A stretch of DNA of 64,000 nucleotides, from positions 4,774,001-4,838,000 of the forward strand of contig CM114271.1 of the NCBI GenBank assembly GCA_050084515.1. The letters are read 5' to 3'. A model generated the notes under the pieces. The model ran no database searches. It was given only the letters and a program-made list of their open reading frames with translations, and was not told the DNA's origin. The position numbers were made by a program, and so were the translations under genes. Below, one piece after another: positions 15,264 to 62,026 of the stretch (within the stretch, counting starts at the first letter, position 1; each line of letters begins with the position of its first letter). The DNA is from Blasia pusilla (lineage: Eukaryota).

Positions 15264-15338
15264 ACATCAAAATTCCGTGGACCATATTAAACTTCTGAAC
15301 ATCAAAATTCCGTGGACCATATTAGAAACTTCTGAACT
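15264..15338. repeat. Short tandem duplication (~35 bp, 2 copies)
   Basis: ACATCAAAATTCCGTGGACCATATTA(GA)AACTTCTGAAC occurs twice. Confidence 0.85.
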
Positions 15339-18710: not shown

Positions 18711-21162
18711 ATGGGGAAGGAGAGCGGTGTGGAGGCGGTGAAGAGCGAGATGGAGGACGGAGAGGTGGAGGCTATGGCTGATGATGAGAACGTGTCGAAG
18801 ATCGACAAAGGGGGAAAGGTGGATGCAATTTTAGAGGATGAGAGCGGGAGAGAAGGGGTGGGAGAGTCCGGGAAAGAGAGACCCAAGGATGGAGGGAGGG
18901 AGAAAGAAGGGGAGAATCGAGCGGATCAGGAGGTTTCCAGAGGGACTCCGTGGAGCAAGGTTGAGAAGAAAGAGAGCAGAGAGGTGCAGGAGAACATAGC
19001 CCGGGACGGAAAGGAGAATGGAAACGCCAATGAAAGTGAGGAGGAGGAAGGCGCTACCGAAGCCGAAGCAGGGCAGGATGGAGATGAAGAAGAAGCGCAG
19101 AACAGCGAGACGGAGGATGATGGGGATGAAGAGGCCGAGACGCCGGCCAGAATTGAAGAAGACGAAGAGAAGTCCCGCGAAGAAGAGGAAGAGAGAAAGG
19201 ATGCAGAGAAGGACTTGGCTTTGACGATGTCGAGCCCCTGGGCTCCCATGGGGGAGATGGATAGGGATAGAGACGGTGCCGTCCGATCTTCTCTGAAAGT
19301 CGGAAGCAAGAGTGGGAGGGACGAGATGGATATCGAAATTGGAAGCTACAGGGAGGTGCAGAGCGAGGGGTTTAAAGAGAGAGGCCGAACAAGAGAAGAA
19401 GATGGCGAACACAGTAAGGAGAAATCCCGCCAGAAGAAGCAGAGACTCGAGCCTCCTCTCCTCTCTTTGTCTCTCCCAGACACATCCCTTCACCTCGCCT
19501 CCGACCCTGGCCAGAAGGTGAAATCGAAATCCTCAAATCCTGTTCCGACGTCTTCCGACAATGAGAGAAGCTTCAGGTCCATGGCCCAGACTCAGAGCCA
19601 GTCGAATGGTTACACCAACTCGCTGTCGCTTTCTCTCTGCCACCCCTTTTTCCACAATCCCAGTTGCTCTCTGACGCAGAATTCCCTCGATGATAAGGAG
19701 GGTACGACTTGCTCGAGCAGGCAAGTCGCTTCGAAACACGAAGGGACACAAGGATCGCATGACAGTTGCCAGGTTTCCTACAGCCGTGATCAAGCCCTCC
19801 ATGGAAACCATTTGTCGTCCGAGGGTTCGCGCGATAGGAGCAAAAATCGCCGCGAACCTCCTCTGTATCAGAGACTCCTGCAGAATGGGAGCCCGCAGTT
19901 TCTTCAAGGGTCTGTAAATAATGAAGGAACGAGAGATAGTCAGCGGTCATTCATGGACGAAAGAGTCTACGAGGGGTCTCAGGGAGGGCTCAACCGGGCT
20001 CAAAGTAGTGATCAGTATCGATGGAAAGATGATGCGGGCCCTGGGAACGCCATGGAGCGAAGCCGAACTTCTCATGACAGAAATTGGAGCATTCACAAAG
20101 ACAAATGTGAGAGGCATGTTCAGGAGGGCTGGTCTCCCCCCACAAGAAGTGCAAGTTTCCAGGAGAGAAACAAGCTTCTGGACCGAGAAAGAAGACTGAC
20201 TGATCCAGATGGTGGACGAGACCTCAGCCTCTCAGGCAGCAGGGGGTTTCTGGACAGAGATGAGGAATCGACTGGACCCGAGAAGAGCGCAGGCGGAATC
20301 GAAGAAGATTCTACCGTGGCGAAAAATTCACGCAAAGTTGAGCGAATTTGGCTCCACGAAATCGTGTCGGAACCGATCGTTGCGATGGCGCAAAAGCTAC
20401 AAAGAGTTCCCGATGCGTTCCTGGAGAGCTTGAGACGATGCCTTCAAGACATGATCGCGAGCAGTAAGAAGAGAGAAGATTTTGTCAATCTCCGGAGAAC
20501 TCTCCAAAGACGAAAGGATCTGTCGACAGAAACGCTCTTCCAGTCTCATCGGACACAACTGGAGATAATGGTTGCTCTGAAGACGGGAATACCAGCGTTC
20601 CTGCACCCTGAAGTTCCCCTCACAACAGGCGAGATGGCAGAAATCATTCTTGGAACGAAGTGTCGGAACGTAGCATGCAAGAACCAACTTCCCGCTGATG
20701 ACTGCGAGTGCAAGGTTTGCTCACAGATGAGCGGGTTCTGCAACGCCTGTATGTGTGTTGTGTGCTACAAGTTTGACTTCGATTCTAACACCTGCCGTTG
20801 GATTGGGTGTGATTACTGCCTTCATTGGTGCCACTCTGATTGTGGTATCCAAATGGGTTACATCTCATCTGGTATCAGCTCCCAGGGCAGCAGTGAGAAT
20901 GCTGTGATGCTGTTCCGATGCATTGGATGTGGGCATACATCAGAGCTTTATGGCTTTGTGAAGGACGTCTTTATTTCATGTGCGAAAGAGTGGAATGAGG
21001 AGACGTTTTCAGCAGAGCTTGAATGTGTGAGACGGATTTTCCACAGGAGTGATGATTTATTGGGAAAGCAGCTCTTTGGGAGAGCAGAGCAATTGCTCGT
21101 AAAGCTCAAAAGCTCTGGGGATCTTGAGGGGGTCTGCAACAGTATGCTGAAGTTTCTGGACG
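18711..21162 (+). CDS. OBE4: OBERON3/4 (TITANIA)-like PHD-finger protein, exon 1
   Basis: Acidic N-terminus, LSLSLPD and FFHNPSCSLTQNS motifs, and an Oberon-type PHD region (KCRNVACKNQLPADDCECKVC...FCNACMCVVCYKFD...CRWIGCDYCLHWCHSDC...FRCIGCGHTSELYGFVKDVF). Donor G|GTAATT at 21162/21163. OBE3 versus OBE4 orthology is unresolved. Confidence 0.92.
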
Positions 21163-21810
21163 GTAATTTCTAGTAGCCTTCTTCGGCCTGTCCCGTTTTT
21201 GCCGCTTCTTGCTCTTGCACGTCTACTTTCTGCTAACGTCTTTCATTCCTCTTTTCTTGCACCAACCCTTGAGTGCTCTGGAATGCGGATGATCCCTACA
21301 CTACCCGGTTGCGAGCACTGATAACCTGCTCGGATGCTGCCCATTTGCTGTTTTTCCATGTTGAAACTCATGACAAAAGTCCCTTAGCCTTTCAAGCAGT
21401 TTTTCTCATTGTCACCTTGTTTCCATGTATTTGGCCATCTCTCTGAGTATGAATGGAAGAAATTGAATCAAAAAGTGGTGCGTGTGCAGTTTACAAACAC
21501 AGTATTGTTAATATTCAGTTTCATCTGCCACCAAATGGTAGTCATCGGCCATGTATCTAAATGTTAGAGATGTTAGCTAGAGAAGGTTCGTGTGCCCGAC
21601 AAATGATAGAGTACAAAAGGAGTTTTTCCTTGCTTGATCAGAAGCCTTACTATCTGAACTCAGAAACTATTCTAGTGTATTTCTCAAAGTCTGTACTGTG
21701 GTACCAAAGCTCATTTTTTTTCAAGGTCTGGAAATTTGGCTTCTGTGTGTTTTAGAGGCATACTGAATTGCAAAGCGAACCTGAAATCTGACTTCGTTCA
21801 CTGTGTGCAG

Positions 21811-22388
21811 AGCATGAGACGCCAAAGTCAGCTCCGAGACCGGGTGCAGGGGCTGAAGCTGTGGTGGTACAGCCTCGAGATAGGGAAATGACGAGTAGAC
21901 TTGCAGATGCTGTCAGAGAAGCCATCCATGTTATGAAAAGCCCCAATAACGAGGGAACTGACTTGGAGAAGGCACGAGCTGCTCTCCAGTTTTTGGATCA
22001 CGAAGTGGAGGAGAAGAGAGCTGAGGCCTCTGAGCTGCATTATGAGCGAAGTATGCAGAAGTCGCAGATAGATGAACTTGAGAGCATAGTGCAGATCAAA
22101 CAAGCTGAGGCTAAAATGTTTCAAATGCGAGCAGATGAGGTTCGTCGTGAGGCTGAGGGATTGCAGCGGATTGTTCAGGCTAAAAATGAAAAGATTGAAG
22201 AGGAGTACAAAGCCAAGCTCCTCAAACTACAACTCACTGAAGTTGAGGAGAGGAGGCGAAAGTGGTATGAAGAAGTACAAGTCATGGAGAAAGCACAGCG
22301 AGAATACAGTGCCATGAAGATGAGCATGGTCAGTGACATCCGTGAGCTTCTGAAAAAGATGGAGGCTAACAAAGCCCAGATCTCTTAG
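21811..22388 (+). CDS. OBE4: OBERON3/4-like protein, exon 2 (coiled coil)
   Basis: Acceptor TGTGCAG|AG at 21810/21811 is in frame with exon 1. Oberon coiled coil IDELESIVQIKQAEAKMFQMRADEVRREAEGLQRIVQAKNEKIEEEY. The spliced CDS is 3030 nt (1009 aa). Confidence 0.92.
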
Positions 22389-26689: not shown

Positions 26690-28458
26690 CAACGTCAATC
26701 TAGTATAGTGTCGTGACGCCCATAGCCACAACATATCACTGGTTTTTGCACTGTGTTGCTTGCGGCCACATTGCCATCTTGATCAGGGAGCCACCTCATG
26801 TTTGAGGATCAAAGCATGTGTTTTCGATATAATAGGGGATTTTTTTTATTTGCATCATGTTATCGAGTGTTGTGTTGTTTATGGCCATTCCATGTTGTCA
26901 TTGTTGTACTGTACCACCTTGACCGCACCGCATCATCGAGGCGGATTGAGTATTTTCATCATTGAGGAGTATGACATGATAATAGAAATATTTTTCTTCA
27001 CGAAAAAGTGGATACCGAGGTTGTAGTTGCCAAGGTGCTACATTGATATTGGTGTAAGATCACTCATTATGGTCTCTTACTTGCACTTGGGAAGGATTTC
27101 TAGGTATTAGATGTTTGTTATAGCATTCGGGTTGTATGGATGTTATGAGCGAAATTTATGTCCGAGTGTAAGAGCCATAGATATGTGTGGGATATATAGG
27201 TTGCTAGTTATTCAAAATTGATAAGAGGATAGATTAGCATAGAGTGTTATTGCAATGTACCGCTTGTTGTCGTATCATACACGTGTCCGAGGGAAGAGTA
27301 TGCATGTTGAGTATTGCTTGTGTTAGTTTTGGGTGACCCAGAGATTACTTGTGGATTTGAGAGTGGTCGTACAAGAAGGCATGAGGGTCATCATGATTTT
27401 CTTTTGAGAGGCAAAGTGATACACCCAAGAGTAGCACTAGAGGATTTATGCATAAATGGTAGAATATATTGAGGGTCTCCATATAAGGGACCACTTCAAC
27501 CTCCTTTTGTATCATCCTCGGACAAAAGAAAGGTCTTAGAGGAGAAGTTTTCCAATGAGTTGCCACGTATGTTGAGTAGTCCTACCATTTGGGCATACGA
27601 GATGGGTGATTAGTACAGAGGGTCGTGTAAGTTTTGAACGATCGTGTGTACTATTGAGTGACACACTTTCATTGCAAATTTTATGATTATGAGTTGGTAT
27701 AACTCACAGAGGGCGAGAAATTATAGAGAGTTCAACCCTTTCATAACATGGAATGGGTTGTTCGAGCACCTAGAGGTGGCGCCCATGTTTGATTACCGTG
27801 ATTTTTCCCTCAAATATTTGCCAAAGATTGACACTTAGAGACTCTTCTTTGATCTACATTATGTGACATGGGTTGAGCCCTTTCAACTTGAGATGAAGGA
27901 GCTAGGGGAGGCTACTTCCTCTGCCACCAATGATCATCATTCAAGAGTGATTCGGAATGGAGAAGTTACACCGTTTAGTTAAGTTGCATGTTGGCCATGT
28001 GAAGGCCAATTGACTGGTAAACACAGAGGTGGTTTGGGCAACCTTCCATTCAAGTTGTTTAATGAAATTATGAGGATCTTGCTGAATTTGGAGGAGCATC
28101 AATCTCATTCTCCAACCCATATTATGGAGAAGGTACTCATTTAGGGTAATTTTTGTTCACAAGTGATAATGAATTTATATTATGTTCTTGCTTGGATAAG
28201 CCCAACAATGTTTTTGGATGCATCAAGCTTAGGTACATAAGCATGTTGATTGTGCCTTTGGTGGACAAAATTGATGCCATATGAGGTTTTGAGGAGGGCC
28301 CCTCCCATTTCTTAGAATCTTGTTGGATCCCATCTTGGATCTTGGACATCAATCATAAGCAATGAGACACGATGAGTGACCTCCGTTGAAGACAATCAGT
28401 AAGGTTGGCATGCAACAAGAAGCCTTTCACTGTATTTATGATTTCTTCCACCTCCTAT
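26690..28458 (+). mobile_element. Old remnant (copy 3) of the DNMT-carrying Gypsy family: leader, Gag N-terminus and DNMT motifs IV-VIII
   Basis: 27690-27885 translates SWYNSQRARNYREFNPFITWNGLFEHLEVAPMFDYRDF...HYVTWVEPF, matching copy 1 Gag. From 27992 it reads WPCEGQ...LFNEIMRIL..LEEHQSHSPTHIMEKV, then WISPTMFLDA...LWWTKLMPYEVLR. It is cut by CACTA at 28459. Confidence 0.85.
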
Positions 28459-31527: not shown

Positions 31528-31530
<3 letters not shown>

Positions 31531-31638
31531 CGTGCGCATACACATCACTATCACCGAACACACACACAAACACGCACGATCCCATGCTAACTCATGGCAT
31601 CCAAACAATGAGACAAGAAGTACCAAAATATTTCCAAT
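31528..31638 (-). repeat. Copy 1 short terminal repeat B2
   Basis: TATCGTGCGCATACACATC...AAATATTTCCAAT is duplicated at 32157-32281. Confidence 0.9.
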
Positions 31639-32154
31639 TAAAGTAAGATCCAATCTCTCTCTACACAATCTCACACCATAGCTCTCAAAGGTGTGCACTC
31701 TCTCTCATGTCAAACCAAACCCACTCTCCTAATGAGAGGCTTGGGTTACACTCACAAGGCAAGGGACCATAGCTCCGCCGCCTCATGCCAAGAGGTTCAA
31801 CTAAGAGAGAATGAGCTCTCAAGCTCTCTCTCCTTGGGATATATACCCCTCCCCTCTTCCAAGCTCTCTCCATGGTAACATTTTCTCCCAAGTCACCTCC
31901 TTGGCTCTTGACCTGATGTAGGAGGTCAAGGGCCACTTACCAAAAATATAAAGTCGATCATATACTCAAAATGGTACTTACCTAAAATAGTAAGTTCCTC
32001 AATATGGCTCCAAATGAGCCAAAACGAAGGGGAAACCTGCTCTCTCAGGTTTCCCGGGGCCTCAGCAGGTCATCCTCAACCTCCAAGGCTTGTCCTTCAC
32101 TACTCTTGAAGATTCTCTACTAGATCTCACTGATCTATCCTAAAGGACGTGACA
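31639..32154 (-). repeat. Copy 1 LTR-like long repeat A2
   Basis: TAAAGTAAGATCC...GGACGTGACA is a direct repeat of 41412-41888, with scattered substitutions and one ~40 bp indel. Confidence 0.95.
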
Positions 32155-32156
32155 GC

Positions 32157-32292
32157 TATCGTGCGTATACACATCGCTACACAACATACATTGTCACCGA
32201 ACACACACACAAACACGCATGATCCCATGCTAACTCATGGCACCCAAACAACGAGATAAGAAGTACTAAAATATCTCCAATCGCCCCCCTAG
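32157..32292 (-). repeat. Copy 1 short repeat B1 with adjacent purine tract
   Basis: B1 is 32157-32281. The minus strand reads CTAGGGGGGCG immediately before it (polypurine-tract-like). Confidence 0.85.
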
Positions 32293-32467
32293 CTGGTGGT
32301 TAGGTCCCTCTAACTCCAAATAGCCATCTATCCCTACCTACCATGACATACATCTCTCGGACGCTAAGAGCGAGAAGGCCGGATGCTCATGTGGCCCCAT
32401 CGTTAGTCGCCTTCCTATCATCCATATCAGAGAAAAAGTCGGGATCAAAACCTACCTAGTATCTCCT

Positions 32468-33781
32468 CTATGTACATTTGGGATACATCCATTGTCCTCG
32501 AGGAACCCTAGTGAGAGGTGGTCTCATACATGCCATATGCCAACCTCTCGAACAACTATCACAGACTAGCATCATGGCCGCACCACGGGCAGAACCACAG
32601 AACATACAACGCAAGCCTGTAGGAACTACTGCTAAGCTCGGATCCACTGTACCATCAATGTTAGGAAGGTGACATGGTGCACAATTACGCACATGGTCCT
32701 TCCATACCATACCATCGCGTCCCTCCAGCAAGAGAACACCGGATGGCAAAACGTCACGCACTCTCAAGATAGTGCGCCCTGCAGTCATATCCAACGTCGT
32801 CGGTGAAGTCTGCTGCAAGTAGACATAATCTCCCTGATGAAACCTCCGGATAGTTGGTCGATAACCACCACCCGGAATAGTCGCATACCTCAACGTATCC
32901 CGATGCTGCACAATCGCCAAGTTCTCGAACGCCATGAGCATCACTCTCCGAAACAACTCAACCCTCTGAGAACATGCTCGGATCCATACATCTGGGTCAT
33001 CAAGGTCCACCACCTCACCAGCATCTTGACAAATGGCCGCAGGTAAATCTGGCTCTCGGCCATAAAGTAGCAAGTACGGTGAAAAAGACGCGAAGGATGC
33101 ATGCCTGCTGAATCTGTATCCCATCGCCAACCATGGCAACTGGAGGTCCCAATCTCCTACGTGACCTCTCTGCAAGCCATACTTGCGTAAACCCCTCTTC
33201 ACCGTCTGCACAACTCTCTCCGCTAATCCATCCGCCTCGAGATGATCTTGCAAAGTTGTGCGGTGGTCGATCAGCGCCTGATCACACAAGGCTTGAAACT
33301 CACCGCGAAACTCGATATCCTGGTCTGTCAATACCTTAGCCGGTGCGCCATAATGACTTAGCACTCTGTCAAGGAATGCATAAGCTACTCCCTCACTCAC
33401 TTTGTCAGGCAATGCAACCAACTCGATCCACTTCGAGAAGTGCTCGATCACCACCAACACATAACGATTGTGACGCTCCGTCAAAGGCAAAGGTCTTGCA
33501 AAATCCAAACTCCATATATACCCTAAGCCCATGATCGGAAATGGATGCAACTATGCAGTCAGAGCATTGAACAATGCTCAGACCCGATCACACACCATGC
33601 ACATGGAAACAAACTGCTGAACGTCAGTTTGCATGCCTCGCCACCAATACTGAATCTGGAGCAAGTTGTACCTCCGCTGTAACCTAAAGTGACCCAACTC
33701 CTCATGGGCATGCTGCACTAGTCGTGCTCTCTGCGAAGGATGCGGCACTACGCGTATTCTGCCATCCTCCCAAACCCTCAA
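32468..33781 (-). pseudogene. Copy 1 integrase (HHCC plus DDE core) with C-terminal PHD finger
   Basis: HAHEELGH...CMVC; WSLDF...VLTDQ...LAERVVQTVK. Terminal CMFC...LVCDSC...WHMAC..PPL..VP.G.WM(Y)PKC. Confidence 0.93.
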
Positions 33782-33817
33782 AACATGTGTCCCCTTCCAA
33801 TGGAACCGTCTGGCCCG

Positions 33818-35520
33818 CTATAGGATCCGATCCCGCTCTCTAGCATCCACGATGCTCTCAACGCTGCCAGTACGAAGGTACTCGAAGACTACTCCATTAT
33901 CATGAATATCTCGGCCACTTGTCGTGTTCTCACTGGCCTTGGGATCCAAGGACTCTCCACTAGACCTCGCCATCGAAGTCTCCACACTCTGGCTCTCCAT
34001 AGCCAACATGCCTAAATAGGCTGACGCGTGCCATCCTGGCACCGACTCCTCATCACTCTCTCCATGCCATCGAGCTCCAGTCGCATCTCGGTGACTCGGG
34101 CATGGGTTACGACTCAACCCATCTGCATCATGGTTGAGCATCCCAGGTCTATGTACCACCTGAAAATCATACTCCTGCAACAACAGAGCCCATCTCGCAA
34201 GCTCCCCTGTAAGCTTATCGGACTCCATCAACCACTTCAGTGGTTGATGATCAGTGATGATGGTAAAGGGGTTGCCGAATAAGTAACACCTGAAATGCAC
34301 GACAACCCACACCACAGCCAAGCACTCACCCTCATACGAGCTGTACTTTGCCTCTGCAGCGTTGTTCGAGCGGCTAGCATAAGCCACCACAAACTCTCTA
34401 CCCTCATCATCATGTGGGGTGAGCACCGCTCCAAGCCCCAACATGCTCCAATCTGTGTGCAACAGGAAAGGACGCCTCCGGATCGGTCTCCTCAAGATGG
34501 GCGCAGACGTCAACCTGTCCTTGAGCAACTGAAATGCTCGCTCTTGCTCATCCTCCCAGTGCCACTCATGATCCACCTTGATCAGCAAGGTCAGGGGATT
34601 TGCAATCGAACTGAATCCCTTGACGTACCGCCGATAAAAGTTCACCAATCCCATGAATGTGCGAACACGACTCACATCTATAGGGCGTGGAATGCGTGAG
34701 ATAGCCTCTTCCTTTGTATGTTGAATACCAAGGCCCCGTGGGTATATCGTAGAAGAACTTGCACTTGCCTGGATGTAGCTTCAGCCCATATAATTGCAAT
34801 CGTCAAAACATCTCCTCTAGATGTCGCTCATGCTCCTCAACCGTGGCGCTAAAGACTATGATGTCATCAATATAACACTTAGAAAAATCCAGACCAGCCA
34901 AGATCCTATCCATGACCCTTTGAAACTCAGTCGGGGCGTTCTTTAACCCAAATGGTAAGAACCGCCACTGGTACAAACAATCCTTCCCGTGAGGATCGAT
35001 GCCCCAAAATACCGTCTCCTGCCTGTCCTCCAATATGATAGGCAATTGATGGTATCCGGCTCGCAAATCCAATGAACTGAAGACCTTCGCGTGACCAATC
35101 ACATCAAAGATCTCTTCAGCGGTGGGCATGGCATACCTATCAAACTTTGTGTGTCGATTGATAGGTCGGTAATCCCTACACATCCGTCTATCCATCCAGT
35201 TGTCATGCACATCCTTCTTGGTGGGCATGACAGTGGCAGATGCATACTCCCCATGGGACATCTCCACTAGTCCTGCTCCGATTAAGTCTTGGCTCCTACT
35301 CTGAATCATAGCCCTCTCCATATCACTTTACCTGTAGGGTCGTCGAAAGATCGGCGTGTCACTCGACAACTCAATGCGGATCCCCGGTCCCTCCAGCGTA
35401 CCCAAATCCTCCATGCTAAATGCAAAGCAGCTCTTATAACTTCTGAGGAACTGATGTATCCGGCGCTGCTCTCCTCTTGTCAACTTAGGGCCCATAATTG
35501 GCTCCCAAATCTCCATCGTG
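33818..35520 (-). pseudogene. Copy 1 reverse transcriptase and RNase H
   Basis: RRMCRDYRPIN, SLDLRAGYHQ, LPFGLKNAP, CYIDDII; then LHTDWS..GLGAVL, YSSYEGECLAVVW, ITDHQPLKWL, ADGLSR. Confidence 0.95.
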
Positions 35521-35849
35521 ACTACGGTAGGACTCTTTGGCGCGGGTATCGGTGGTTGCTATGGTGCAAGCCAATCTTGAACAACAACACTCGGCTGCTC
35601 TTGTGTTGCCAACTGCAAATTTTGATCTCCTCCACGTGCAGTGCTCTAAACCACGCTCGATGTTGTGGCTATCATCTCCTGGCGTACCTGCAAAACATCC
35701 CAAGAAGTCCAAGGATGTCTCTCCCGATCTCCCATGGTGTGTCGATCTCCTCAGGTCCCGCCCCCAGCCACTGGCTCCACCGTCTTGGTACGCATGGGGC
35801 TCAGCAACGCAACCATTGTGATGTGTCTCGATCTCATCCGACGCTACTC

Positions 35850-36870
35850 ATCCACTCCCAAGCTGAAGATCCATGTCAAGCACTTTAGGTCCATCGCCTG
35901 ACCCAAGACATGGCGTCGTGATGCCTCTGATACTGACGGGACTGCCGTCACTCCTGTGGGAAATCCCATCGCCCGCTCTCTCTCATCGGCGTCGGGCTCC
36001 ACCAACCTCTGAACCGGGTCATCCCAAACCAAGCCAGGACCGGCCTCCTTGTATGCATAGGAAGCGGGAAAACTCACAAACGTGGGAAAGGCTGCCTGCG
36101 GCCTGCCTACCCTATTGACCACAGTCAGCGATGGTCGATCATGGTGCCTCACTGCTTGTGATCGATGACCTGGATCTATAATGGAATCCACTAATAAATG
36201 GGAGGGGCACTCCACTCTTGCATACACCCCCCGTAACACCGTATGGGGCACCAAGTTGGTCCACCATAGACGCGTGCGATGGGCTCTAGAACCTACACTC
36301 GCCGCATCCAAGAATACTGTTGGGCCGATCCAGGCACGCACCTGATGAGCATTCGTCACCACCCGTGACCTGGAGTCTCCTAAGATAGGCACATTCTCCA
36401 GAATGTAGGCTAGAGAATAAGACTAGTGCTCCTGCAACTACTGTAAGACCCTCAACATCTCCCAAAACAATCTGGACCGAGTGTCAGCCAACCCGCTACC
36501 TCATCCAGCACTTGATTGGCCCTGATATGGCCAACGGCTGATGTATCTGAGCAACCATCCAAGCCTCACATTCGGCGATATGGCCAACCGGAAATGACCA
36601 AATCAATGGTCCCTACCCGCTCTAAGTCATGCGCCCCCAACGACGAAATATCCCTCGGTAGGGAACTCTGGTATCCCTGTACCGCGGACGCAGACAATAA
36701 GTCGCGAAAATGTAGACGTAATTGCGCCACATATTGTAGTGAGACGCGCCTTGCAACATCATCACTCTCCACATACAGGTACTGTTGTACTCGCACTCCT
36801 GCCTGCAAATCAACAGCTAACCCGGTGCTAATCCCTCCAAAGAGATCTAACACTCGAATACCCTCCTCCG
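35850..36870 (-). pseudogene. Copy 1 DNMT3-like C5 cytosine methyltransferase domain
   Basis: Motif I RVLDLFGGISTG (DLFGG at 36833-36847), II YVE, IV GWP(Y)QG.SSAG, VI ILENV (ENV at 36390-36398), VIII DAASVGSRAHRTRLWWTNL, IX ERERAMGFP, X RRHVLGQAM. Confidence 0.92.
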
Positions 36871-37078
36871 GGATACACCACACAATGGGTGTGGTATCCA
36901 AGGGTGTCATCATAGCACTCCCTGCTACCTCGGGTTCCTCAGACCCATCCCGCTCCGATGCAAACGCCTCACTCCACGCGGTTTGCACGTGCTCATCTAC
37001 CAATCGTCGAAGCTTCTCAGTCGAGCCCCACAACGGCACCACTCCTCTACGGAATGATGCAGCTACCATAATACTCCT

Positions 37079-37618
37079 CTACATAGAAATGTCAGGAACG
37101 GGAGTATCCTCTGCATGGACATGTCCCTCAATAAAATCACTAGGCCAAGTGATCGCACTGCTAAATGCTGCTAAGGTCGCGATCTCTCCTGGCCGTTGCT
37201 CGATCACTTCACTTGTGAATCGAACGGGTAATGAACTAAGGCGCCCATCACCTGACTGCCATCCTGGTCTGTAGGACGCTGACTCCTCCCAATAATCCAG
37301 GGCAAACCCCATTGGGTATAACACTGCTCCACCAACCAAGATGTCATAAGACTCTACATCAATCACTATCGCCTTGGCTCGCACCACGGACTCATCTGTA
37401 CGATGTCCCGGGCGAATTCTCACCACGACCTCCTGTCGGGTGATATACTGTGTGGTACTCGCTCCACCCAAGGATGTCTGTATCCGGAATGGACAACACT
37501 CCACATTGGCTCTTGTCAAGCCCAATCCTCTGAATGACGCTTTCCCCAACATCAGGGGTTGCGCCTGAATCAACAAGGCAGCCTGCGGACTAAAAGCTCT
37601 ACCTCCGAGACTCACCAA
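37079..37618 (-). pseudogene. Copy 1 retroviral-type aspartic protease region
   Basis: Degenerate LLDSGAQP (copy 2 reads DSRAQP) and YDILVGG, located between Gag and the DNMT. Confidence 0.7.
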
Positions 37619-38194
37619 CTAGAATACCTCTCCTCGGTTATCCAGCAACACAACACTAGGAGAAGCCATGGCACGCTCTATCGCGGGTCTAGCGGGCATC
37701 TCCACCATCCTAGCAGCCGCAGCCTGCCATGCATCTAACGTGGACGGCCCGAGCATCCGCTCCAAGGGCAGGTCCATCACCTCCTCTGCAATCAACTCTG
37801 AACATGATGCAGGAACTCCAACTCTGCACTCACATAGTGAAGCGGCCAGCCGAAAAGCCTTGGCGGGCGTACCCCCCAATCTCATAACATCGGAAGCAGA
37901 AAATAAAGGAGTGCGGTACACAACGGTGGCCGCCCCCAACAACGTGCTCGACACATGCCCCACCTCAGCATCAACAATAGGAGTCGTCGTAATCGCTTCT
38001 CCCATCACCCTCCGTGCCTGCACACCAACAACATCACCAGCTCTCCAAGGACTCTGATCAAGACCCATCGATGGGGTCCTCATCGCCTCGGACAACGTGA
38101 AAGATTGAGGAAGCCTAGTCTCTTTCGTGGCTTCCCCTCGCTGTGGATCCAACTCTGCGGTTGCTCCACGCGTCACAACTGCGGCGGCCTCCAT

Positions 38195-39990
38195 CTAGGC
38201 AACCACGCACATCCAACCAGGATCCTCCAGATCTCTGGCTGCTCCAAATGATGTCGATGCCACGGATCCGGCATCGGGTAACCTCAATGGCATAGCGGTA
38301 ATCTCCTCATGTAGCTGACTGATGTATCTGAGCAGCCATCCAAGCCTCACATCCGGCGTCTCCCTCGGCGGGTCTAGGTGGTGGTACTCTACCTCCTCCA
38401 CGGACAGCTCCACCACCCTGTCGGGCAACTCCAGCTCCTCGTCCCCCAACGGGACCATCTAGTGCACGATCTCTAGGCCCACCTGGACCGGGTACTCGCT
38501 TTGGTGCCCTCTCTGGCCCTCGGTCCGGACGTAACTCAGGATGTAAACTGAAACACCTGGCGTGTGTATGACCATACCTCTGACAATAGTCACACTGATA
38601 ACCTTCTGGTGGAGCACCATCTCCTCCTCCATGTTGAGGCACATGTCCATGACCTTGACGAGTGCAATCGCGCTAATGATGGGCTCCACCACATGACCAA
38701 CAAGTAATAGTAGGCGGCTGCTGTTGAGCCGCATATGAAGGCGCAGGTCTCTGTGGCACGGCCTCCAGGTGTCCTCCTTGAGCTCGTGGTGCCACAGTCA
38801 ACCTATCCCGGAGTCCACGTTGCTGCACAAGTGGTGCAGACAATCGTGACTGCTCTCGCCCAGAACCCATGGTGGCTAGGCTCTCCTCCGCCATGTTGCG
38901 CTCAATGTTCTCGGCAGTCCTAAAAACATCTCTCAACGTAGGGGAGGTGTTCATAAGAAGCACCCCCTCCCACACCCGTGTGTGCAGGGTCCGGTCTAGC
39001 ATCGCGTACCATGACTAGATAGCCTGAGCCTCTATCATCCCTTGAGTAACGTTGATCAACCGGCGCAAGCAAGTGTAAGCCTCACGCAAACTCTTACCCG
39101 GGCGCATTTGGAAGTCGTGGATGCTCTGCAACTTCTTCATCCGTACCCCATGGTAGCTCGCCCTCAATTCAGCAAAGAACTCAACCACAGGGTTGAACCT
39201 GGGACGAGCCCGACTAGACGCTGCAACTGCTCCCATGCGAGTGACCCCTCTTAGAACGTCACTAGTGGAAGAAGAAGTACCCTCTCCTGACTCCTCCTCC
39301 TCCTCCGAGAACGGCTCCGTCCATGACACATAGTGTGGGTCATAGTAGAGTCGCCGTGCCTCAATCTCCTGGGCATATCTATGGGAAAACTCATGGTAAT
39401 CGTCCATGGGTGCCCCCTCTAAATGCTGGAAAATACCGTTCCATGCTATAAACGGGTTGAACTCTCTAGAGTTCCTGGCCCGCTGGGAGTCACACCAACT
39501 CCTAAACTCTGCAATAAAATCGTGCAACTCAATCGTACCTATTACACCTGAAAACCTATGCGGTCCTCTACCCCGGTCGTCCATCTCGTACGCCCAACTG
39601 GTAGGACCACTCACAATGTGTGGAGATGTGCTCACAAACTCCTCTACACCCTCCCCCTTGTTTGACGATGACACAGAAGGAGTTCGAGGTGGTCCCTAAA
39701 GTGAAGATTCTCGGAACCTCACGCCACTCCGCGTAAAACCTCTAGAGCTACTCTCGGGTTCACCACCTCACCTCTCCAAGTCCTGAACGGACGACGTGAT
39801 GACCCTCGTGCCCTTCTCACCCGATCACTCTTGCCTTGCGAGTAATCCCTTAATCACTCATCCCAAACATGCGGCACTTGATCTACACTCTCCCTCCCCG
39901 AGACATGTAACGTGCGGCAATAAGCAGCGTGGTGGGGCAAATTGACCAGGCTATCATTTCATTGATAACCTACCCTCAACTCCGGACATC
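38195..39990 (-). pseudogene. Copy 1 Gag with two zinc knuckles
   Basis: CWSCGGAHH*RDC and CDYCQRYGHTHARC; QMRPGKSLREAY major-homology-like motif. The start codon is uncertain. Confidence 0.8.
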
Positions 39991-41411
39991 CCACACAGGT
40001 CTATGTCCCCTAAACCACATACATAAATGATGCTCTCAGCATCCACACACCCAGTATCCCCAAATAAACTACCCAAATCCCATAATCCCTCACACGTGCA
40101 GGATAAAGAACCAGAATGGGTAACCTCAACACATGTCAATGTCGCTCCTCAGCAATTGCAAATCTCGACACCAACTCGGTCGTGGAGACAACTCCTCCAA
40201 TCAGCAAGTCATACTCCTCCCGTATTGACGTTGCTCAAAACTCCTCGATAGACGGTGCGGTTCCAGCGGAACAATGCAGCGTTGCAGGCGGCACGGAATG
40301 GCTACCAACGGCACGGCCCTTGATGATGGGTTGTGGCACTTGGCGGCATACCCTCCTCAATCAACAAAAAACCCACACTCTGATCCACAATGCCGGAGCG
40401 GCTCCGCGATCAAGACGTTGTGGTGCGGCCACGATCGGCACGGCGCGGCAATTGGCAGCGCGTTGCGGCTACGTACAGGCGTCACGACACGGTACCCGAT
40501 CGTCGTTGAGCGGCTACCAATCACAACATAGCAGCATGAAATCAAAACTCAAACACTATAATAGGAGGTCATATGCCATCACACGTTGATGACGGTGGCG
40601 GCCAAAACAAAATACCTGATGGCGACGCAAGTCCAAGAATCAACGAACGTTGTGGAAGACCCTCCACTCTGTAAGGGCGGCAATGGCAACCAAGGGTGGA
40701 CAACGGACGGTGGACCATTGACTGTGACGGTTGACCATTGATGGTGAAGGCCGAACGGTGATGGTGACGATTGACCGTCGCTTATGACGGTTGACCATTG
40801 ATGGTGATGGTTGACGGTCGATGGTGACTATGACGGCGATAGCCGCCGCCGGTGTGGCGGCTGGTTTAGGGTTTGCACAATTTAACCCTAAAAATCGCCT
40901 AGCAATGGAAGTTTTGCAAGATTGACGATAACTTTTTGCTTGCAACTCCAAATTGCACACTATTTACTGCATAGCGTGCATAACTTTACAATCTACGCTA
41001 ACATGAAAAATATTTAGAATCAAACATTCCAGTAAAAACTGACGGGGACTGTCGTAAAGTCCAATGTCTCTTTCTCCTACACAAAATTTGGCAGCGCTTC
41101 CACGCTGATTCCTCCCAACAAAAATGTAAAACCTGTAAAAATGCAAATCAGCAAGCAACATGGTGCTCCTAAAAGCACCGGCATGGGGCAATCCGCCCCC
41201 ATACTCAATCCCTATCAGAAATTGGGCAGCGCTTCCGCGCGCCACTCTTCCACACGAAAAAATGGCAAATGCAAAGAATAATCCAAGCAACCCTTGCTCC
41301 GATGAGCACTCCCATGAGTCGTTGAACGGGGAACACCGTCCCCAACTTGCAAATACAACGAGTGACCAGCAAGCTCCCCCATGAAGCTCTCTCACTCTCT
41401 CATTCTCTCTT

Positions 41412-41885
41412 TGTAAAGTAAGATCCAATCTCTCTCTACACAATCTCACACAATAGCTCTCAAAGGTGTGCACCCTCTCTCATGTCAAACCAAACCCACT
41501 CTCCTAATGAGAGACTTGGGTTACACTCACGAGGCAAGGGACCATAGCTCCGCCGCCTCACGCCAAGAGGTTCAACAAAGAGAGAATGAACTCCAAGCTC
41601 TCTCCATGGTAACCTATTCTCCCAAGTCACCTCCTTGGCTCTTGACCTGACGTAGGAGGTCAAGGGCCACTTCCAAAAAAATATAAAGTCGATCATATAT
41701 TCAAAATGGTACTTACCTAAAATAGTAAGTTCCTCAATATGGCTCCAAATGAGCCAAAACGAAGGGGAAACCTGCTCTCTCAGGTTTCCTGGGGCCTCTA
41801 CAAGTCATCCTCGACCTCCTAGGCCTGTCCTCCACTACTCTTGAAGAAACTCTACTAGATCTCACCGATCTAACCTAAAGGACGT

Positions 41886-41888
<3 letters not shown>
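41412..41888 (-). repeat. Copy 1 LTR-like long repeat A1 (5' end)
   Basis: TGTAAAGTAAG...GGACGTGAC. No TGG-type primer-binding site follows on the minus strand. Confidence 0.95.

Positions 41889-41978
<90 letters not shown>
41889..41978. repeat. (GA)n microsatellite, right flank of copy 1
   Basis: Perfect dinucleotide run. Confidence 0.98.
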
Positions 41979-41980: not shown

Positions 41981-43729
41981 CTACATATTGGCTTACATGT
42001 GTAGGGCTTGGAGTCATGGTTGGAGATGCACACAATTGACTAGCACTAGGGGAAAATACTCCCCTAGTGTATCAAGTATGGTGCACTCTCAAGCATATAA
42101 GTATGGTGCATCTAATGCTCCTCCCTGTTGATATCACATATAAATCAGATACTAACCATAAATAAAGCATAAAGAAGATAAATTTTGTAGACTAGAGTTC
42201 ATACATAATAATTTTAAATAGGATACGATAAAACAATAATGATTAAGACGTATAATTGGAACCCATGGCTTTTGTGAAGAAATACTACTCCATGCCCATT
42301 GTGGATGTCGTGCCAATGGATAAGACCATGGACTATAAGGTTGTGGTGGAGGTGCAGGGGCAAACCATCCTCCTAGGGTAGGATTCCATTGCATCCCGCT
42401 TGGGCCCCATCCCTCCCCGGGATATGACGGTGGAGGTGCACTCCCTCTTCCTATGCACCCATCTTCTTTACCAAGCAGGAATGCTCCAACGTTCAGCCAT
42501 ATACTCAGGGGTCTCTCTACCTTGATCTTTGATTCTACATGCTTCCTTCCCATTATTCCCTTTGAGCTTTTTAAGTAGGCTAAGCTTGAGAACATTCAAG
42601 TGTAATATATTTTATCAAACTTGAACATTATCTACTGACCTACCATAAAGCCATCCATGACAATACATGTTCTTGATAGAGATATTTAGTGACTAAAAAA
42701 TTGAACAATGCCATTTTATCTAGAAGAGGATGATGAGATAGATCTTCATCCTCTTGAAGATCAAATTCAAGCTCCTCATATTAGGACATGGCACGAAGTA
42801 GATTGGGTAGAGGACTGCGATGCTTGTTTTCCCCTATATTCAAAACCTGCTTTTTGAACCTAGAAACACCTAGCTAGATCTTGTAATGAAAGACTCCGCC
42901 TTGATGGTTGATTGGAGGCCTTTACATTAAGAGATGATTTCTCTCTCCTTGTGTGAGACTTCTCTGGATTGGAGAAACTTCCACAATCCAAGATCACCAA
43001 TTAGGAGTAAAGAAGACATGAAATAAATCTGTTCTAAATCCCAAGTATAGAGCTTATAAATTTCCCCAAAAAATCTGCTTAGCCAAACTTACACTAATGG
43101 AACACTACCAAAGATGATAACTTCACAAGGCTTTCTCAACCTCACATTTTCCTCACGCATAAGTTCATAAGGATTTTGAGGAGGGTCCTCCTCAAGATTC
43201 AAATGTGTACAATCTCTGAGGGATGCTGAAAAATCGGATTTGACGTATTTCTCCCATCCCCCTCACATACTTCCTTTCTATCTTTGATGCAGGAACTCTC
43301 TACCTCGGTGAATTTCATATTCTCAACCATTGGCTCTGAAAAAAAAGGCATAATCAGGTTCCCCTTCATTAAACATCAATAATCTAACATGCCAACTTAG
43401 TCATGCTCCTCATCAGACTCTTCACTTGATGAGCCAATTTCAAAACACACATCTACAGCCGCTACATTGCCAAAGTCTCTACGTGCTATGGCCATTTTCT
43501 TGTCAGTTAGATCTATATCTCAAAGAGTGTTCAATACTAAAAATCTATCAGGCAAACGTATATGAGCCTCAAGATCACTATAGCTTTCATGTTCCTCGTA
43601 ATTCACATCAGTCTCCTCTACAAACACTCCGCATGCCCTAGCTTCTTTTTGTATGACCACTTTCCACTCACTTCCTTCCCTAGCATGAGCAAAAAATACT
43701 TGCTCAACTTGGGAAGGAAAAACAAAAGG

Positions 43730-44858: not shown

Positions 44859-45484
<626 letters not shown>

Positions 45485-49420: not shown

Positions 49421-49829
49421 CCTACAGATCAGGTTGGCAGTCCGATGATGGACGACTTAGTTCATTATCGTTCGATTCACGGGTGGAGTGATCGAGTGAC
49501 AACCAAGAGAGATGGCGACTTTAGCAGCATTTAGCAACGCCATCACGTGGCCTTCTGAGTTGACTGAGGGGCATGTCCATGCAGAGGAAAACCCCGTGCC
49601 TTACACTTCTAGGGAGAGGAGCATTATGGTAGCCGCATCATTCAGTGGAGGAGAGGTGCCGTTGTGGGGCTCAAGTGAGGAGCTTCGTCGCTTATCTGAT
49701 AAGCACGTGCAGACAGCCTGGATTGAGTCATTTGCACTAGAGCGTGTCGAGTCAGAGGGACCCAAGGTAGCCGTGAGTGCTCCTAAGACCCCTTTGAACA
49801 CCACACCAATTGTGTGGCGTATCCCAGAA

Positions 49830-50830: not shown

Positions 50831-51199
50831 GCTTAGGAATAGTTGAGCAACGTCGTTTGAGGATGCGATTGATCACAATTATTGCGTTGGTGAGCCCCAT
50901 ATCGAGACGGTTAAGGCAATGGCTAGGGGTGAGACTCAAGGAAATCAACGCACCAGGGATGATCAGGAGAGAAACCCTTGGACTTCTTGGGGTGTTTCAC
51001 ATGTATGCCTAGAGATAATAGCCATAGAATCGAGCTTGGTTCCAAAAACTGCACGTGGAGGAGATTAGAGTTTGCAACTGGCTGCAACAAAGTAGTCGAG
51101 TGTTGTTGTTCGAGACGGGGTTGCACCATAGCAACCACCACCACCCGCGCCAGAGAGTCCTACCCTAGTCACGATGGAGACTTGAGAGCCACAGACTTG

Positions 51200-61376: not shown

Positions 61377-62026
61377 AGGGGGCTATTGGAGATATTTTGG
61401 TACTTCTCATCTCGTTTTTTGGATGCCATGAGTTACCATGGGATCATGTGTGATTGTTCGGTTACACTGATGTGTATGCATCTTTTAGGATACATTTGAG
61501 AGATCTAGTAGAGTGCCTTCCAAGATATTGGAGGAAATCCTTAGGAGGTCAAGGATAACCTGCTAAGGCCACAAGTAACGTACGAGAGCAACTTTCCCTT
61601 TTATTTAGCTCATTTGAAGCCATATTGAGGAACTTATTATTTCGGGTAAGTTACTGTTATGGTATAGTTAACTTTCCAATTTGGGAAGTGATCCTTGACC
61701 CGCTAGAGAAGGTCAAGGGCCAAGGAGGTGACTTATGAGCATATGTTATCGTGGAGAGGGTTTCAGAGAGGGAAGTGGGTATACCTCCAAGAGAGAGAGC
61801 TTGAGGGCTCATTCTCTCTTTGTTGAACCTCTTGGCATGAGGCAAGAAAGCTATGGTTCTCCTTATCTTGTGTGTGTAATCCAAGCCTCTCATTAGGAGA
61901 GTGGGTTTGGTTCACATGAGAGAGAGTGCACACCATGGAGAGCTTGGTGTGAGATGTTGATGGAGACATTTGATCGATTTATTGAAGATATTTGTATGTT
62001 ATGTAACGATGTGTATGCGCACGACA
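61377..62026 (+). repeat. Copy 2 3' terminal block: purine tract, B1, A2, B2
   Basis: AGGGGG then ATTGGAGATATTTT...GATGTGTATGCA (B1), the long repeat A2, then ATTGAAGATATTT...GATGTGTATGCGCACGACA (internally deleted B2). Confidence 0.88.

What the first reader, a model, noticed from the sequence alone, without database searches (positions are those of the whole stretch)
31528..32292. Split direct repeats (A1-ORF-B1-A2-B2) instead of a plain LTR pair on a DDE-integrase element
Seen: copy 1 ends with B1 (32157-32281), A2 (31639-32154) and B2 (31528-31638), while its 5' end has only A1. Copy 2, an independent insertion in the opposite orientation, shows the same order. Its outer ends TGTCAC...CACGACA are fixed by a 4 bp target duplication and by the rejoined CACTA reading frame, so B2 belongs to the element. 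Known: split direct repeats characterise tyrosine-recombinase retroelements (Ngaro/PAT types), whereas this element has an HHCC-DDE integrase and Gypsy domain order. Inference: replication differs from the canonical LTR pathway, and LTR finders would mis-set the 3' boundary. I recall, without being able to verify it, similar termini in 'Troyka' Gypsy-like elements; this should be checked before claiming novelty.
Basis: partly seen in the sequence, partly recalled or inferred. Interest (0 to 1): 0.85.

Follow-up and report, generated by a model that had tools for sequence, protein, structure and literature searches.

The report
Gypsy retrotransposon with split direct repeats
Two old copies of a liverwort Gypsy-type retrotransposon carry an extra short repeat outside the 3' long terminal repeat, a layout already noted once in an algal relative, and the junction sequences suggest the element is inserted as a rotated copy of a circular DNA form.

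Summary
Two independent insertions share the order A1-internal-B1-A2-B2: copy 1 at 31528-41889 (- strand) and copy 2 at 44859-62026 (+ strand). B2 lies inside the inserted unit in both. The element has a Ty3-like RT/RNase H, an intact DDE integrase ending in a PHD finger, a DNMT3-like domain and no tyrosine recombinase. The host is a liverwort.

The Troyka recollection is wrong: Troyka means 3-bp duplications and CG..CG ends in animals. The true precedent is KnitGypsy-Dnmt3 of Klebsormidium (de Mendoza 2018), described as having DIRS-type repeats with Gypsy domains. This is therefore a new member of a known kind.

New anatomy found here:
- A 15-nt perfect self-primer site lies directly after A1 in copy 1.
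- A G-run lies directly before B1 in both copies.
- The A2|B2 joint reads as U5 end joined to U3 start.
- B-end/GC/A-start forms a TG/CA palindrome.

My best reading (confidence about 0.4) is that the true LTR is B+A. The cDNA ends are joined into a circle, and integrase cuts the internal palindrome and inserts with a 4-bp duplication. This rests on two copies only, and no plant genome DNA could be searched.

The parts
41415..41889 (-). Copy 1, A1: the 5' repeat (U3-R-U5). It starts CGTCAC and carries a 40-bp deletion that removed the TATA-like box.
41575..41589 (-). Copy 1: TCATTCTCTCTTTGT, the putative first 15 nt of the transcript (the self-primer). The same position in A2 lies 31 nt after TATATAT.
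41400..41414 (-). Copy 1: ACAAAGAGAGAATGA, a 15-nt perfect complement of the putative RNA 5' end, starting at the A1/internal boundary. Read as a self-priming primer binding site.
   Evidence: 0 of 5000 shuffles reach 15 nt; the fold pairs the two arms, z -2.97
40593..41399 (-). Copy 1 leader. It cannot be aligned with copy 2's leader (45503-46179).
35600..39572 (-). Degenerate first reading frame, collinear with ~1250-aa Marchantia proteins. It holds a protease-like part near 37.3-37.6 kb and a DNMT3-like domain at 35847-37078.
34746..35537 (-). Reverse transcriptase.
33821..34780 (-). RT thumb and RNase H. The best solved-structure match is Ty3.
32471..33817 (-). Integrase: H2C2 zinc finger, DDE core (D16, D76, E111 of the 360-aa frame) and a C-terminal PHD finger.
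32282..32290 (-). AGGGGGGCG, a polypurine-tract-like G-run directly upstream of B1. The copy 2 equivalent is at 61376-61382.
32157..32281 (-). Copy 1, B1 (ATTGG...CACGATA).
32155..32156 (-). GC spacer between the B1 end and the A2 start; the centre of the TG/CA near-palindrome.
31639..32154 (-). Copy 1, A2 (TGTCAC...CTTTA), with the TATA-like box at 31839-31845.
31528..31638 (-). Copy 1, B2: the outermost 3' repeat, followed at once by (CT)n.
44859..45481 (+). Copy 2, A1 (TGTCAC...), with a (GA)n expansion at 45180-45306. The ACAAAGA remnant of the primer site lies at 45482-45488.
61385..61479 (+). Copy 2, B1. Its joint with A2 lacks about 16 nt, including both end motifs.
61480..61980 (+). 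Copy 2, A2.
61981..62026 (+). Copy 2, B2 (internally deleted; ends CACGACA). The flanking 4-nt duplication is GCCT at 44855-44858 and ACCT at 62027-62030.
26922..28458 (+). Third fragment of the same family: internal part only, 64-68% identical to copy 1, with no A or B.

Best explanation
The element is a roughly 10.4-kb Ty3/Gypsy-type retrotransposon of the green-lineage group that carries a DNMT3-like domain and a PHD-tailed DDE integrase. It sits in a liverwort genome. The A1-X-B1-A2-B2 layout is inherited through transposition and is not a local accident.

Most likely mechanism:
1. The functional LTR made by reverse transcription is B+GC+A.
2. Transcription starts about 30 nt after a TATA-like box inside A.
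3. The first 15 nt of the RNA fold back on the complementary site that directly follows A1 and prime the minus strand (Tf1-type self-priming).
4. The plus strand starts at the G-run directly before B1.
5. The resulting linear cDNA, (B-A)-X-(B-A), has tips (ATTGG... and ...CTTT) that lack the TGTNR ends Gypsy integrases use.
6. The tips are joined, giving the A|B joint now seen as A2|B2.
7. The integrase cuts the TG/CA palindrome between B and A (..GACA GC TGTC..) in one of the two LTRs of that circle and inserts the opened molecule with a 4-bp duplication.
8. Cutting the palindrome in the 5' LTR gives exactly A-X-B-A-B. This form still has a promoter-bearing A at the 5' end and a complete B-A at the 3' end, so it can replicate again.

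Shown: the anatomy, the junction sequences, the complementarity, the duplication and the domain content.
Inferred: the transcript ends, both priming events, circle formation and the cut.
For: Inheritance of the layout:
- Two insertions in unrelated targets have the same order and the same junction positions, although they differ by about 20%.
- B1/B2 and A1/A2 of copy 1 are equally diverged (8/111 vs 26/475).

Integrase ends:
- The outer ends TGTCA... and ...CGACA fit the TGTNR pattern that PMC2836005 reports for most Gypsy elements (passages read).
- D, D and E are invariant in an 11-sequence alignment.

Minus-strand priming:
- A 15-nt perfect inverted repeat links 41589-41575 with 41414-41400, the latter exactly at the A1/X boundary.
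- 0 of 5000 dinucleotide shuffles of A1 reach 15 nt; the maximum was 13.
- The minimum-energy fold pairs the two arms (z -2.97; 1 of 200 shuffles folds as well).
- The upstream arm starts 31 nt after TATATAT in A2.
- Self-priming is documented for Tf1/Sushi and predicted for the Tcn1 clade of mosses and club-mosses (PMC6317226, passages read).

Plus-strand priming:
- A G-run lies directly before B1 in both copies, and there is no purine tract before A2.

The A2|B2 joint:
- In copy 2 it equals the last base before the primer site joined to the first base of B.
- In copy 1 it has one extra A.

The palindrome:
- B end + GC + A start is a 10-bp perfect palindrome when copy 2's end is used, and matches 9 of 10 positions in copy 1's own joint.

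Precedent for the cut:
- PFV and HIV-1 integrases cleave the palindromic LTR-LTR junction of 2-LTR circles (abstracts of PMC1180852 and PMC1905944 read).

Internal control:
- An ordinary Gypsy nested in copy 2 has a plain LTR pair, and its LTR ends ..GACA followed by AG and then TGGTATCGAGC.
Against: - Only two copies exist, both old and degenerate.
- The self-primer pairing is strong only in copy 1. Copy 2 keeps 7 complementary nt at the homologous place, which is within chance.
- The TATA-like box is deleted from A1 of copy 1, so the start site is inferred from A2 and from copy 2.
- The G-run is short (6-7 G) and is called a plus-strand primer by position alone.
- The GC spacer is seen once, because copy 2's joint is deleted.
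- The model needs a circle as an obligatory intermediate and an internal cut by the integrase. Neither is shown for any retrotransposon.
- The model predicts by-products (A-B-A-X-B, A-X-B, solo A-B) and none is in this window. However, 64 kb is a very small sample.
Confidence: 0.4

Rival explanations
1. DIRS/PAT-like end regeneration. The transcript lacks the outer part of A1 and of B2. The internal B1-A2 joint, an image of the joined termini, serves as template to rebuild both ends during reverse transcription. The completed DNA is then inserted by the DDE integrase instead of a tyrosine recombinase.
For: - The layout is the one defined for PAT/Ngaro/Viper elements, A1-internal-B1-A2-B2 (passages of PMC4157794 and PMC8969392).
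- De Mendoza 2018 equated the repeats of the algal relative with those of DIRS.
- The internal joint contains both outer ends separated by 2 nt.
Against: - No tyrosine recombinase was found in either copy: 0 of 26 ORFs on the sense strand of copy 1 and 0 of 83 further ORFs covering the opposite strand of copy 1, both strands of copy 2 outside the nested element, and one frame of the third fragment.
- A 4-nt duplication is present, whereas DIRS-type elements are described as lacking duplications.
- The self-primer site after A1 and the G-run before B1 give ordinary start points for both strands. These leave the A2|B2 joint, not the B1|A2 joint, as the thing that needs explaining.
- This model does not predict that A2|B2 should equal U5 end plus U3 start.
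Confidence: 0.25
2. Some other replicative route gives the same layout, for example template switching by reverse transcriptase from the end of A to the start of B, or integration from a head-to-tail concatemer, without a ligated circle.
For: - The A end and the B start share ATTGGA-like words in copy 1, which could guide a switch.
- The layout is clearly heritable.
Against: - The shared word lies 10 nt inside A, so a switch there would delete the last 10 nt of A, and these are present.
- No run-off point for the polymerase at the B start is evident.
Confidence: 0.2
3. B2 is a local tandem duplication or unequal-recombination product in a family that normally has two plain LTRs, or a plain LTR equal to A+B that lost B at the 5' end.
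For: - Tandem and recombinant LTR arrangements are common in plant genomes (general knowledge).
- Only two copies were examined.
Against: - Two independent insertions, about 20% diverged, have the same order with junctions at the same bases.
- B2 lies inside the insertion limits in both.
- B1/B2 is as old as A1/A2.
- Under standard reverse transcription, U5 of both progeny LTRs comes from the 5' LTR, so a B lost at the 5' end could not reappear at the 3' end of progeny.
- The CAAAGA that follows A1 is shared by both copies, so the A1/internal junction is ancestral.
Confidence: 0.05

Closest known systems
KnitGypsy-Dnmt3 of Klebsormidium nitens, called 'Gypsy-DNMT3' of streptophytes (de Mendoza et al. 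2018, PMC5890265; named again in bioRxiv 10.64898/2026.05.21.726589)
   Same: - Gypsy-type domains plus a DNMT3-like domain.
- Repeats described as DIRS-like, that is A-coding-B-A-B.
   Different: - The host here is a liverwort.
- The DNMT3-like part lies upstream of RT and is collinear with a separate ~1250-aa frame in Marchantia. Chlorophyte relatives instead have RT-RH-DNMT-IN.
- I could not see Fig 4c or the supplements, so the domain order, termini and duplications of the Klebsormidium element are unknown to me.
- No sequence comparison with it was possible.
PAT-like, Ngaro and Viper tyrosine-recombinase retrotransposons (DIRS order)
   Same: Split direct repeats A1-internal-B1-A2-B2, with the internal pair near the 3' end.
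   Different: - They encode a tyrosine recombinase and make no target duplication.
- This element has a DDE integrase, TG..CA ends and a 4-nt duplication.
- Its methylase-like domain is of the C5 DNMT3 type, not the Dam-like type of DIRS.
Tf1/Sushi and Tcn1 self-priming Ty3/Gypsy elements
   Same: The predicted RNA 5' end is complementary to the site directly after the 5' repeat.
   Different: - Those elements have two plain LTRs and usually a chromodomain.
- Here there is a PHD finger and an extra B.
- That the Tf1 primer is 11 nt long is my recollection and comes from no call.
Retroviral 2-LTR circles cut by integrase at the palindromic junction (PFV, HIV-1)
   Same: A CA..TG palindrome that an integrase can open to give two processed ends (abstracts).
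   Different: - In retroviruses the palindrome is the joint of the two LTR tips, and the circle is at most a side route.
- Here the palindrome lies 125 nt inside the LTR and the tips themselves lack TG/CA.
- The spacer is 2 nt. The 4 nt I quote for retroviruses is recalled and comes from no call.
Troyka (Kojima 2025, PMC12440569)
   Same: A Gypsy-like lineage with unusual termini.
   Different: Troyka has two ordinary LTRs, CG..CG ends and 3-bp duplications, and occurs in animals only. The parts of the paper I read contain nothing about split repeats.

Membership tests
Ty3/Gypsy (Metaviridae) LTR retrotransposon | Domain order RT - RNase H - integrase, with an RT/RNase H of the Ty3 type | tested here: met
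   - Pfam finds RVT_1, RT_RNaseH, Integrase_H2C2 and rve in that order.
- The window RT/RNase H frame best matches Ty3 structures 4ol8 and 7q5b, E 1.2e-28.
Ty3/Gypsy (Metaviridae) LTR retrotransposon | DDE integrase, TG..CA (TGTNR) ends and a 4-6 bp target duplication | tested here: met
   - D16, D76 and E111 are invariant.
- The ends are TGTCA.. and ..CGACA.
- The duplication is GCCT/ACCT with frame rescue at 4 nt in copy 2. It cannot be read in copy 1.
Ty3/Gypsy (Metaviridae) LTR retrotransposon | Two plain LTRs as the outermost parts, with the polypurine tract abutting the 3' LTR | tested here: not met
   - B2 lies outside A2.
- The only G-run lies 127 nt upstream of A2, in front of B1.
Ty3/Gypsy (Metaviridae) LTR retrotransposon | gag and aspartic protease | tested here: inconclusive
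   - No Pfam hit in copy 1, even at E 5.
- Relative P0374, which aligns to 37645-35859, carries Asp_protease_2.
- A UniRef name for Marchantia relative P0361 mentions a CCHC-type domain.
Gypsy-DNMT3 (KnitGypsy-Dnmt3 type) | DNMT3-type C5 methylase domain inside the coding region | tested here: met
   - Two window frames match the N-terminal part (E 0.03) and the C-terminal part (E 0.006) of the DNMT3A catalytic domain, in the right order.
- 24 of 34 relatives of the second frame carry PF00145.
- The match in the window copy itself is weak and the frame is broken.
Gypsy-DNMT3 (KnitGypsy-Dnmt3 type) | Repeats arranged A-coding-B-A-B | tested here: met
   compared with the legends read
Gypsy-DNMT3 (KnitGypsy-Dnmt3 type) | Sequence kinship with the Klebsormidium elements | not testable with these tools
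   - No Klebsormidium sequence was returned or available.
- Named relatives are chlorophytes and bryophytes.
DIRS order (PAT/Ngaro type) | Split direct repeats | tested here: met
DIRS order (PAT/Ngaro type) | Tyrosine recombinase and no target duplication | tested here: not met
   - 0 of 26 ORFs and 0 of 83 ORFs hit Phage_integrase.
- A 4-nt duplication is present.
Troyka | CG..CG termini and a 3-bp duplication | tested here: not met
   - The ends are TG..CA. Only copy 1's first base reads C.
- The frame is restored by removing 4 nt, not 3.
Self-priming LTR elements (Tf1/Sushi, Tcn1) | RNA 5' end complementary to the site directly after the 5' LTR, and no tRNA-type site | tested here: inconclusive
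   - Met in copy 1: 15 nt perfect, with 0 of 5000 shuffles reaching that length.
- Only 7 nt remain in copy 2.
- A motif of the type used by the nested Gypsy occurs at chance frequency, 14 found vs 12.45 expected.
- The transcript start is not mapped.

The most novel reading that the evidence does not exclude
This Gypsy lineage has made the circle that retroviruses treat as a dead end into its normal integration substrate. Reverse transcription yields LTRs whose tips cannot be used by the integrase. The tips are joined, and the DDE integrase opens the circle at a TG/CA palindrome 125 nt inside the LTR. Every productive insertion is then a rotated provirus with split direct repeats. That would be a mechanistic bridge between LTR elements and DIRS-type elements, reached without a tyrosine recombinase. 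It would also explain why split repeats arise repeatedly.
Probability: 0.3. Interest if true: 0.8.

Novelty: new member of a known kind. Interest (0 to 1): 0.55.

Why it matters
- Split direct repeats are taught as the hallmark of tyrosine-recombinase retroelements. A DDE-integrase lineage with the same layout has been mentioned only in one figure legend, and its mechanism has never been addressed.
- The junction anatomy found here turns that oddity into a concrete, testable model: a self-primer after A1, a G-run before B1, a tip-to-tip A|B joint and a TG/CA palindrome at B|A.
- The model's predictions can be checked by counting element permutations in any bryophyte assembly and by looking for circles.
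- In practice, LTR finders will truncate these elements at A2, and classifiers may call them DIRS.
- The family is present in Marchantia, Calypogeia and Sphagnum proteomes as 'hypothetical proteins', some labelled as DNA methyltransferases. This can mislead counts of host DNMT genes.

Tried and rejected
- Troyka as precedent: rejected after reading.
- RNA structure in B: three B copies fold no better than shuffles (z -0.12, +0.97, -0.88).
- tRNA-type primer site: there are no tRNA genes in the window. The motif of the nested Gypsy's site, allowing 2 mismatches, gives 14 hits against 12.45 expected.
- Two of those hits, at 40163 and 46562, are homologous. However, they lie in a conserved, probably coding stretch shared by all three copies, so I dropped them.
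- gag and protease in copy 1: nothing by Pfam, even at E 5.
- Tyrosine recombinase: none.
- Protein atlas search of the IN-PHD frame: it returned only generic integrase/PHD clusters, best score 0.91, with no new lead.
- Cluster look-up of six close relatives: almost all are unnamed metagenome or read-assembly records, so it gave no help on taxonomy.
- Search for more A or B units, or predicted by-products, in the window: none found.
- Plain A+B LTR with a lost 5' B, and A-only LTR with a duplicated 3' UTR: both considered and rejected, because neither can regenerate B2 in progeny.
- DNA-level cut-and-paste by the integrase, as in Ginger transposons: considered and rejected, because RT is present and A1/A2 behave as LTRs.
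- Literature: 10 of 10 searches used. 'KnitGypsy' occurs in one paper only. I found no text describing termini, duplications or a replication model for this lineage. The searches cover open-access text only, and I could not open figures or supplements.
Full report
**1. What is in the sequence**

The window is plant DNA.
- A large exon at 18612-21170 and the next at 21792-22385 encode an Oberon-type protein.
- Its best named relatives are liverworts: Marchantia polymorpha 64%, Riccia sorocarpa 61% and Calypogeia fissa 58% identity.

Repeat searches and BLAST define two full copies of one retroelement family in opposite orientation, plus one internal fragment.

Copy 1 runs on the minus strand from 41889 to 31528:
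- A1 41889-41415
- about 9.1 kb of internal sequence
- B1 32281-32157
- the dinucleotide GC
- A2 32154-31639
- B2 31638-31528

Copy 2 runs on the plus strand from 44859 to 62026:
- A1 44859-45481
- B1 61385-61479
- A2 61480-61980
- B2 61981-62026
- It is interrupted by a nested, ordinary Gypsy element at about 51768-58649.

Profile searches find four A and four B units in the window and no others.

**2. Is B2 part of the element?**

Yes, in both copies.
- Copy 1 lies in a (CT)n tract. The tract runs up to the first base of A1 and resumes immediately after the last base of B2.
- Copy 2 lies in a CACTA transposase gene on the minus strand, between the Transposase_21 part (62482-63084) and the DUF4218 part (44362-44858).
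- Removing the element together with 4 nt rejoins the reading frame.
- The rejoined protein has 10 residues between the conserved LLP and VR motifs, the same as homologue P0339.
- The 4-nt duplication is GCCT/ACCT, so 3 of 4 bases match.

In copy 1, B1/B2 differ at 8 of 111 aligned sites and A1/A2 at 26 of 475 (Fisher p 0.50). Both pairs therefore arose together. In copy 2, A1/A2 differ at 79 of 494 sites, which makes it much older.

- Copy 2's B2 is internally deleted (46 nt).
- Copy 2's B1|A2 joint has lost about 16 nt.
- Copy 1 starts CGTCAC.
- Copy 1's duplication is unreadable.

**3. What kind of element it is**

- On the element strand of copy 1, 4 of 26 frames of 70 aa or more carry retroelement domains, in the order RVT_1, RT_RNaseH, Integrase_H2C2, then rve plus a C-terminal PHD finger.
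- The RT/RNase H frame is closest to Ty3 among solved structures (E 1.2e-28).
- The D, D(35)E triad and the C4HC3 pattern of the PHD finger are invariant in an alignment with ten relatives.
- No frame matches a tyrosine recombinase. This holds for the 26 frames and for the 83 frames (the other strand of copy 1, both strands of copy 2 outside the nested element, and one frame of the third fragment).
- Upstream of RT, two frames match the N-terminal and C-terminal parts of the DNMT3A catalytic domain, in the right order (E 0.03 and 0.006).
- The second of these frames has 34 relatives at E 1e-5 or better. Of these, 24 carry PF00145, 14 are named Marchantia polymorpha, 2 Calypogeia fissa and 3 Sphagnum.
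- Marchantia proteins of about 1250 aa are collinear with 39572-35600. One relative has an aspartic protease before the methylase domain.
- Relatives of the integrase-PHD frame: 246 at E 1e-3 or better, with the best 120 listed. Eleven of the 120 carry PF00145, and the named ones are chlorophytes.
- In five chlorophyte or unnamed relatives the methylase-like part lies between RNase H and integrase, whereas in the window it precedes RT.

**4. Comparison with the literature**

Troyka is not the precedent. It is defined by 3-bp duplications and CG..CG termini, in animals (abstract, section 14 and a term search of PMC12440569).

The precedent is de Mendoza et al. 2018 (PMC5890265).
- The legend of Fig 1e defines the DIRS arrangement as 'A-coding region-B-A-B'.
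- A 2026 preprint refers to 'streptophytes (Gypsy-DNMT3)' (passages read).
- 'KnitGypsy' occurs in no other paper of the library.

The REXdb survey of plant LTR elements does not mention PHD at all (0 occurrences).

I could not see the figure or the supplements. I therefore do not know whether termini, duplications or priming sites of the algal element were described.

**5. New anatomy bearing on mechanism**

(a) A self-primer site after A1.
- In copy 1 the 15 nt that start at the A1/internal boundary (41414-41400) are a perfect complement of 41589-41575 inside A1.
- None of 5000 dinucleotide shuffles of A1 gives a complement longer than 13 nt.
- The minimum-energy fold of the 195-nt stretch pairs the two arms (z -2.97; 1 of 200 shuffles folds as well).
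- In A2 the upstream arm begins 31 nt after TATATAT, which is where a transcript would start.
- This is the arrangement of self-priming elements, known for Tf1/Sushi and predicted for the moss and club-moss Tcn1 clade (passages of PMC6317226).
- Copy 2 keeps only ACAAAGA at the same place, 7 nt, which is within chance.
- Beyond this site the leaders of the two copies are unalignable for about 700-800 nt.

(b) The only purine-rich run near the 3' end, AGGGGGG, lies directly before B1 in both copies and not before A2.

(c) The A2|B2 joint.
- In copy 2 it is exactly the last base before the primer site joined to the first base of B.
- In copy 1 it has one extra A.

(d) The B1|A2 joint.
- In copy 1 it reads ..CACGATA GC TGTCACG..
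- With the end as kept in copy 2 (..GACA), the 10 nt around the GC are a perfect palindrome.

(e) The outer ends.
- TGTCA.. and ..CGACA fit the TGTNR pattern reported for most Gypsy elements (passages of PMC2836005).
- The B start (ATTGG) and the A end (..CTTT) do not fit it.

(f) Control.
- The nested ordinary Gypsy in the same window has gag, protease, RT, RNase H and integrase detectable by Pfam.
- It has a plain LTR pair.
- Its LTR ends ..GACA, followed by AG and TGGTATCGAGC.

**6. Most likely mechanism (inferred)**

Points (a) and (b) place the start of the minus strand at the end of A1 and the start of the plus strand at the beginning of B1.
- Ordinary reverse transcription would then give a linear DNA (B-A)-X-(B-A), whose tips are not integrase ends.
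- Point (c) is what a tip-to-tip joint of that molecule looks like.
- Points (d) and (e) place a double integrase site between B and A.

Opening a circle with two tandem LTRs at the palindrome of the 5' LTR gives A-X-B-A-B, the layout observed. That product keeps everything needed for another round.

Integrase cleavage of palindromic LTR-LTR junctions is documented for PFV and HIV-1 (abstracts).

The model predicts non-productive sister products: A-B-A-X-B, A-X-B and solo A-B with duplications. None is in this window, but two insertions cannot test that.

I give this model 0.4. I give 0.25 to a DIRS-like end-regeneration route, 0.2 to some other replicative route, and 0.05 to a local rearrangement. 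The remainder is unassigned.

**7. Limits**

- There are two copies, both old and broken.
- The self-primer evidence rests on copy 1.
- The GC spacer is seen once.
- Transcript ends are not mapped.
- Supplements and figures of the key paper were not visible.

**8. Verdict**

The element is a liverwort member of a lineage whose split repeats had already been noted, so the kind is known. The junction anatomy and the model it suggests are, as far as my ten text searches show, not in print.

Noticed in passing
window 51768-58649 (- strand): An ordinary Gypsy element is nested in the RT region of copy 2. It has gag, zinc knuckle, protease, RT, RNase H and integrase. Its LTRs are partly 100% identical (300 nt). 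A tRNA-type primer site, TGGTATCGAGC, lies 2 nt after an LTR end ..GACA. The LTRs may extend beyond the coordinates reported by the repeat finder (to about 58680).
   Followed up: partly
window 35847-37078 (- strand) and relatives P0032, P0040, P0042, P0055, P0070: The DNMT3-like domain lies upstream of RT in the window and in Marchantia proteins. In chlorophyte-type relatives it lies between RNase H and integrase, so the domain order has been permuted within the lineage.
   Followed up: partly
window 32471-32620 (- strand): The integrase ends in a PHD finger (C4HC3) where chromoviruses carry a chromodomain. All 10 compared relatives keep it.
   Followed up: partly
proteins P0352-P0385: Fourteen Marchantia polymorpha, two Calypogeia fissa and three Sphagnum database proteins are parts of this retroelement family. 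They are annotated as hypothetical proteins or as DNA (cytosine-5) methyltransferase, which could inflate counts of host DNMT genes.
   Followed up: no
window 26922-28458 (+ strand): A third, much more diverged internal fragment of the same family (64-68% identity to copy 1), without A or B units.
   Followed up: partly
window 40593-41399 vs 45503-46179: The leaders following the primer site are unrelated between the two copies over about 700-800 nt, although the rest of the elements aligns at about 80%.
   Followed up: partly
window 61470-61490: In copy 2 the internal B1|A2 joint has lost about 16 nt centred on the palindrome. This could be a palindrome-prone deletion or a repaired cut.
   Followed up: no
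window 45180-45306 and 41590-41600: A (GA)n tract expanded to about 125 nt inside A1 of copy 2, at the place of a short native (GA)n. A 40-bp deletion in A1 of copy 1 removed the TATA-like box.
   Followed up: no
window 31902-31935 and 41636-41669: A conserved 13-nt inverted repeat (TGGCTCTTGACCT / AGGTCAAGGGCCA) lies inside A, upstream of the TATA-like box. It is also recognisable in copy 2.
   Followed up: no
window 42155-44858 and 62027-63673 (- strand): A CACTA (EnSpm-type) transposase gene with Transposase_21 and DUF4218 parts, split by copy 2.
   Followed up: partly
window 4907-6396 (+), 11850-13256, 18612-22385 (+): An F-box/Kelch gene, PIF1-helicase fragments on both strands (possibly Helitron remains), and an Oberon-like gene whose nearest named relatives are liverworts.
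   Followed up: partly
window 14001-16000; 1466-4716: A very AT-rich stretch (GC 0.25), and a set of 100-160 nt direct repeats at 1466-4716 (families D5 and D7).
   Followed up: no
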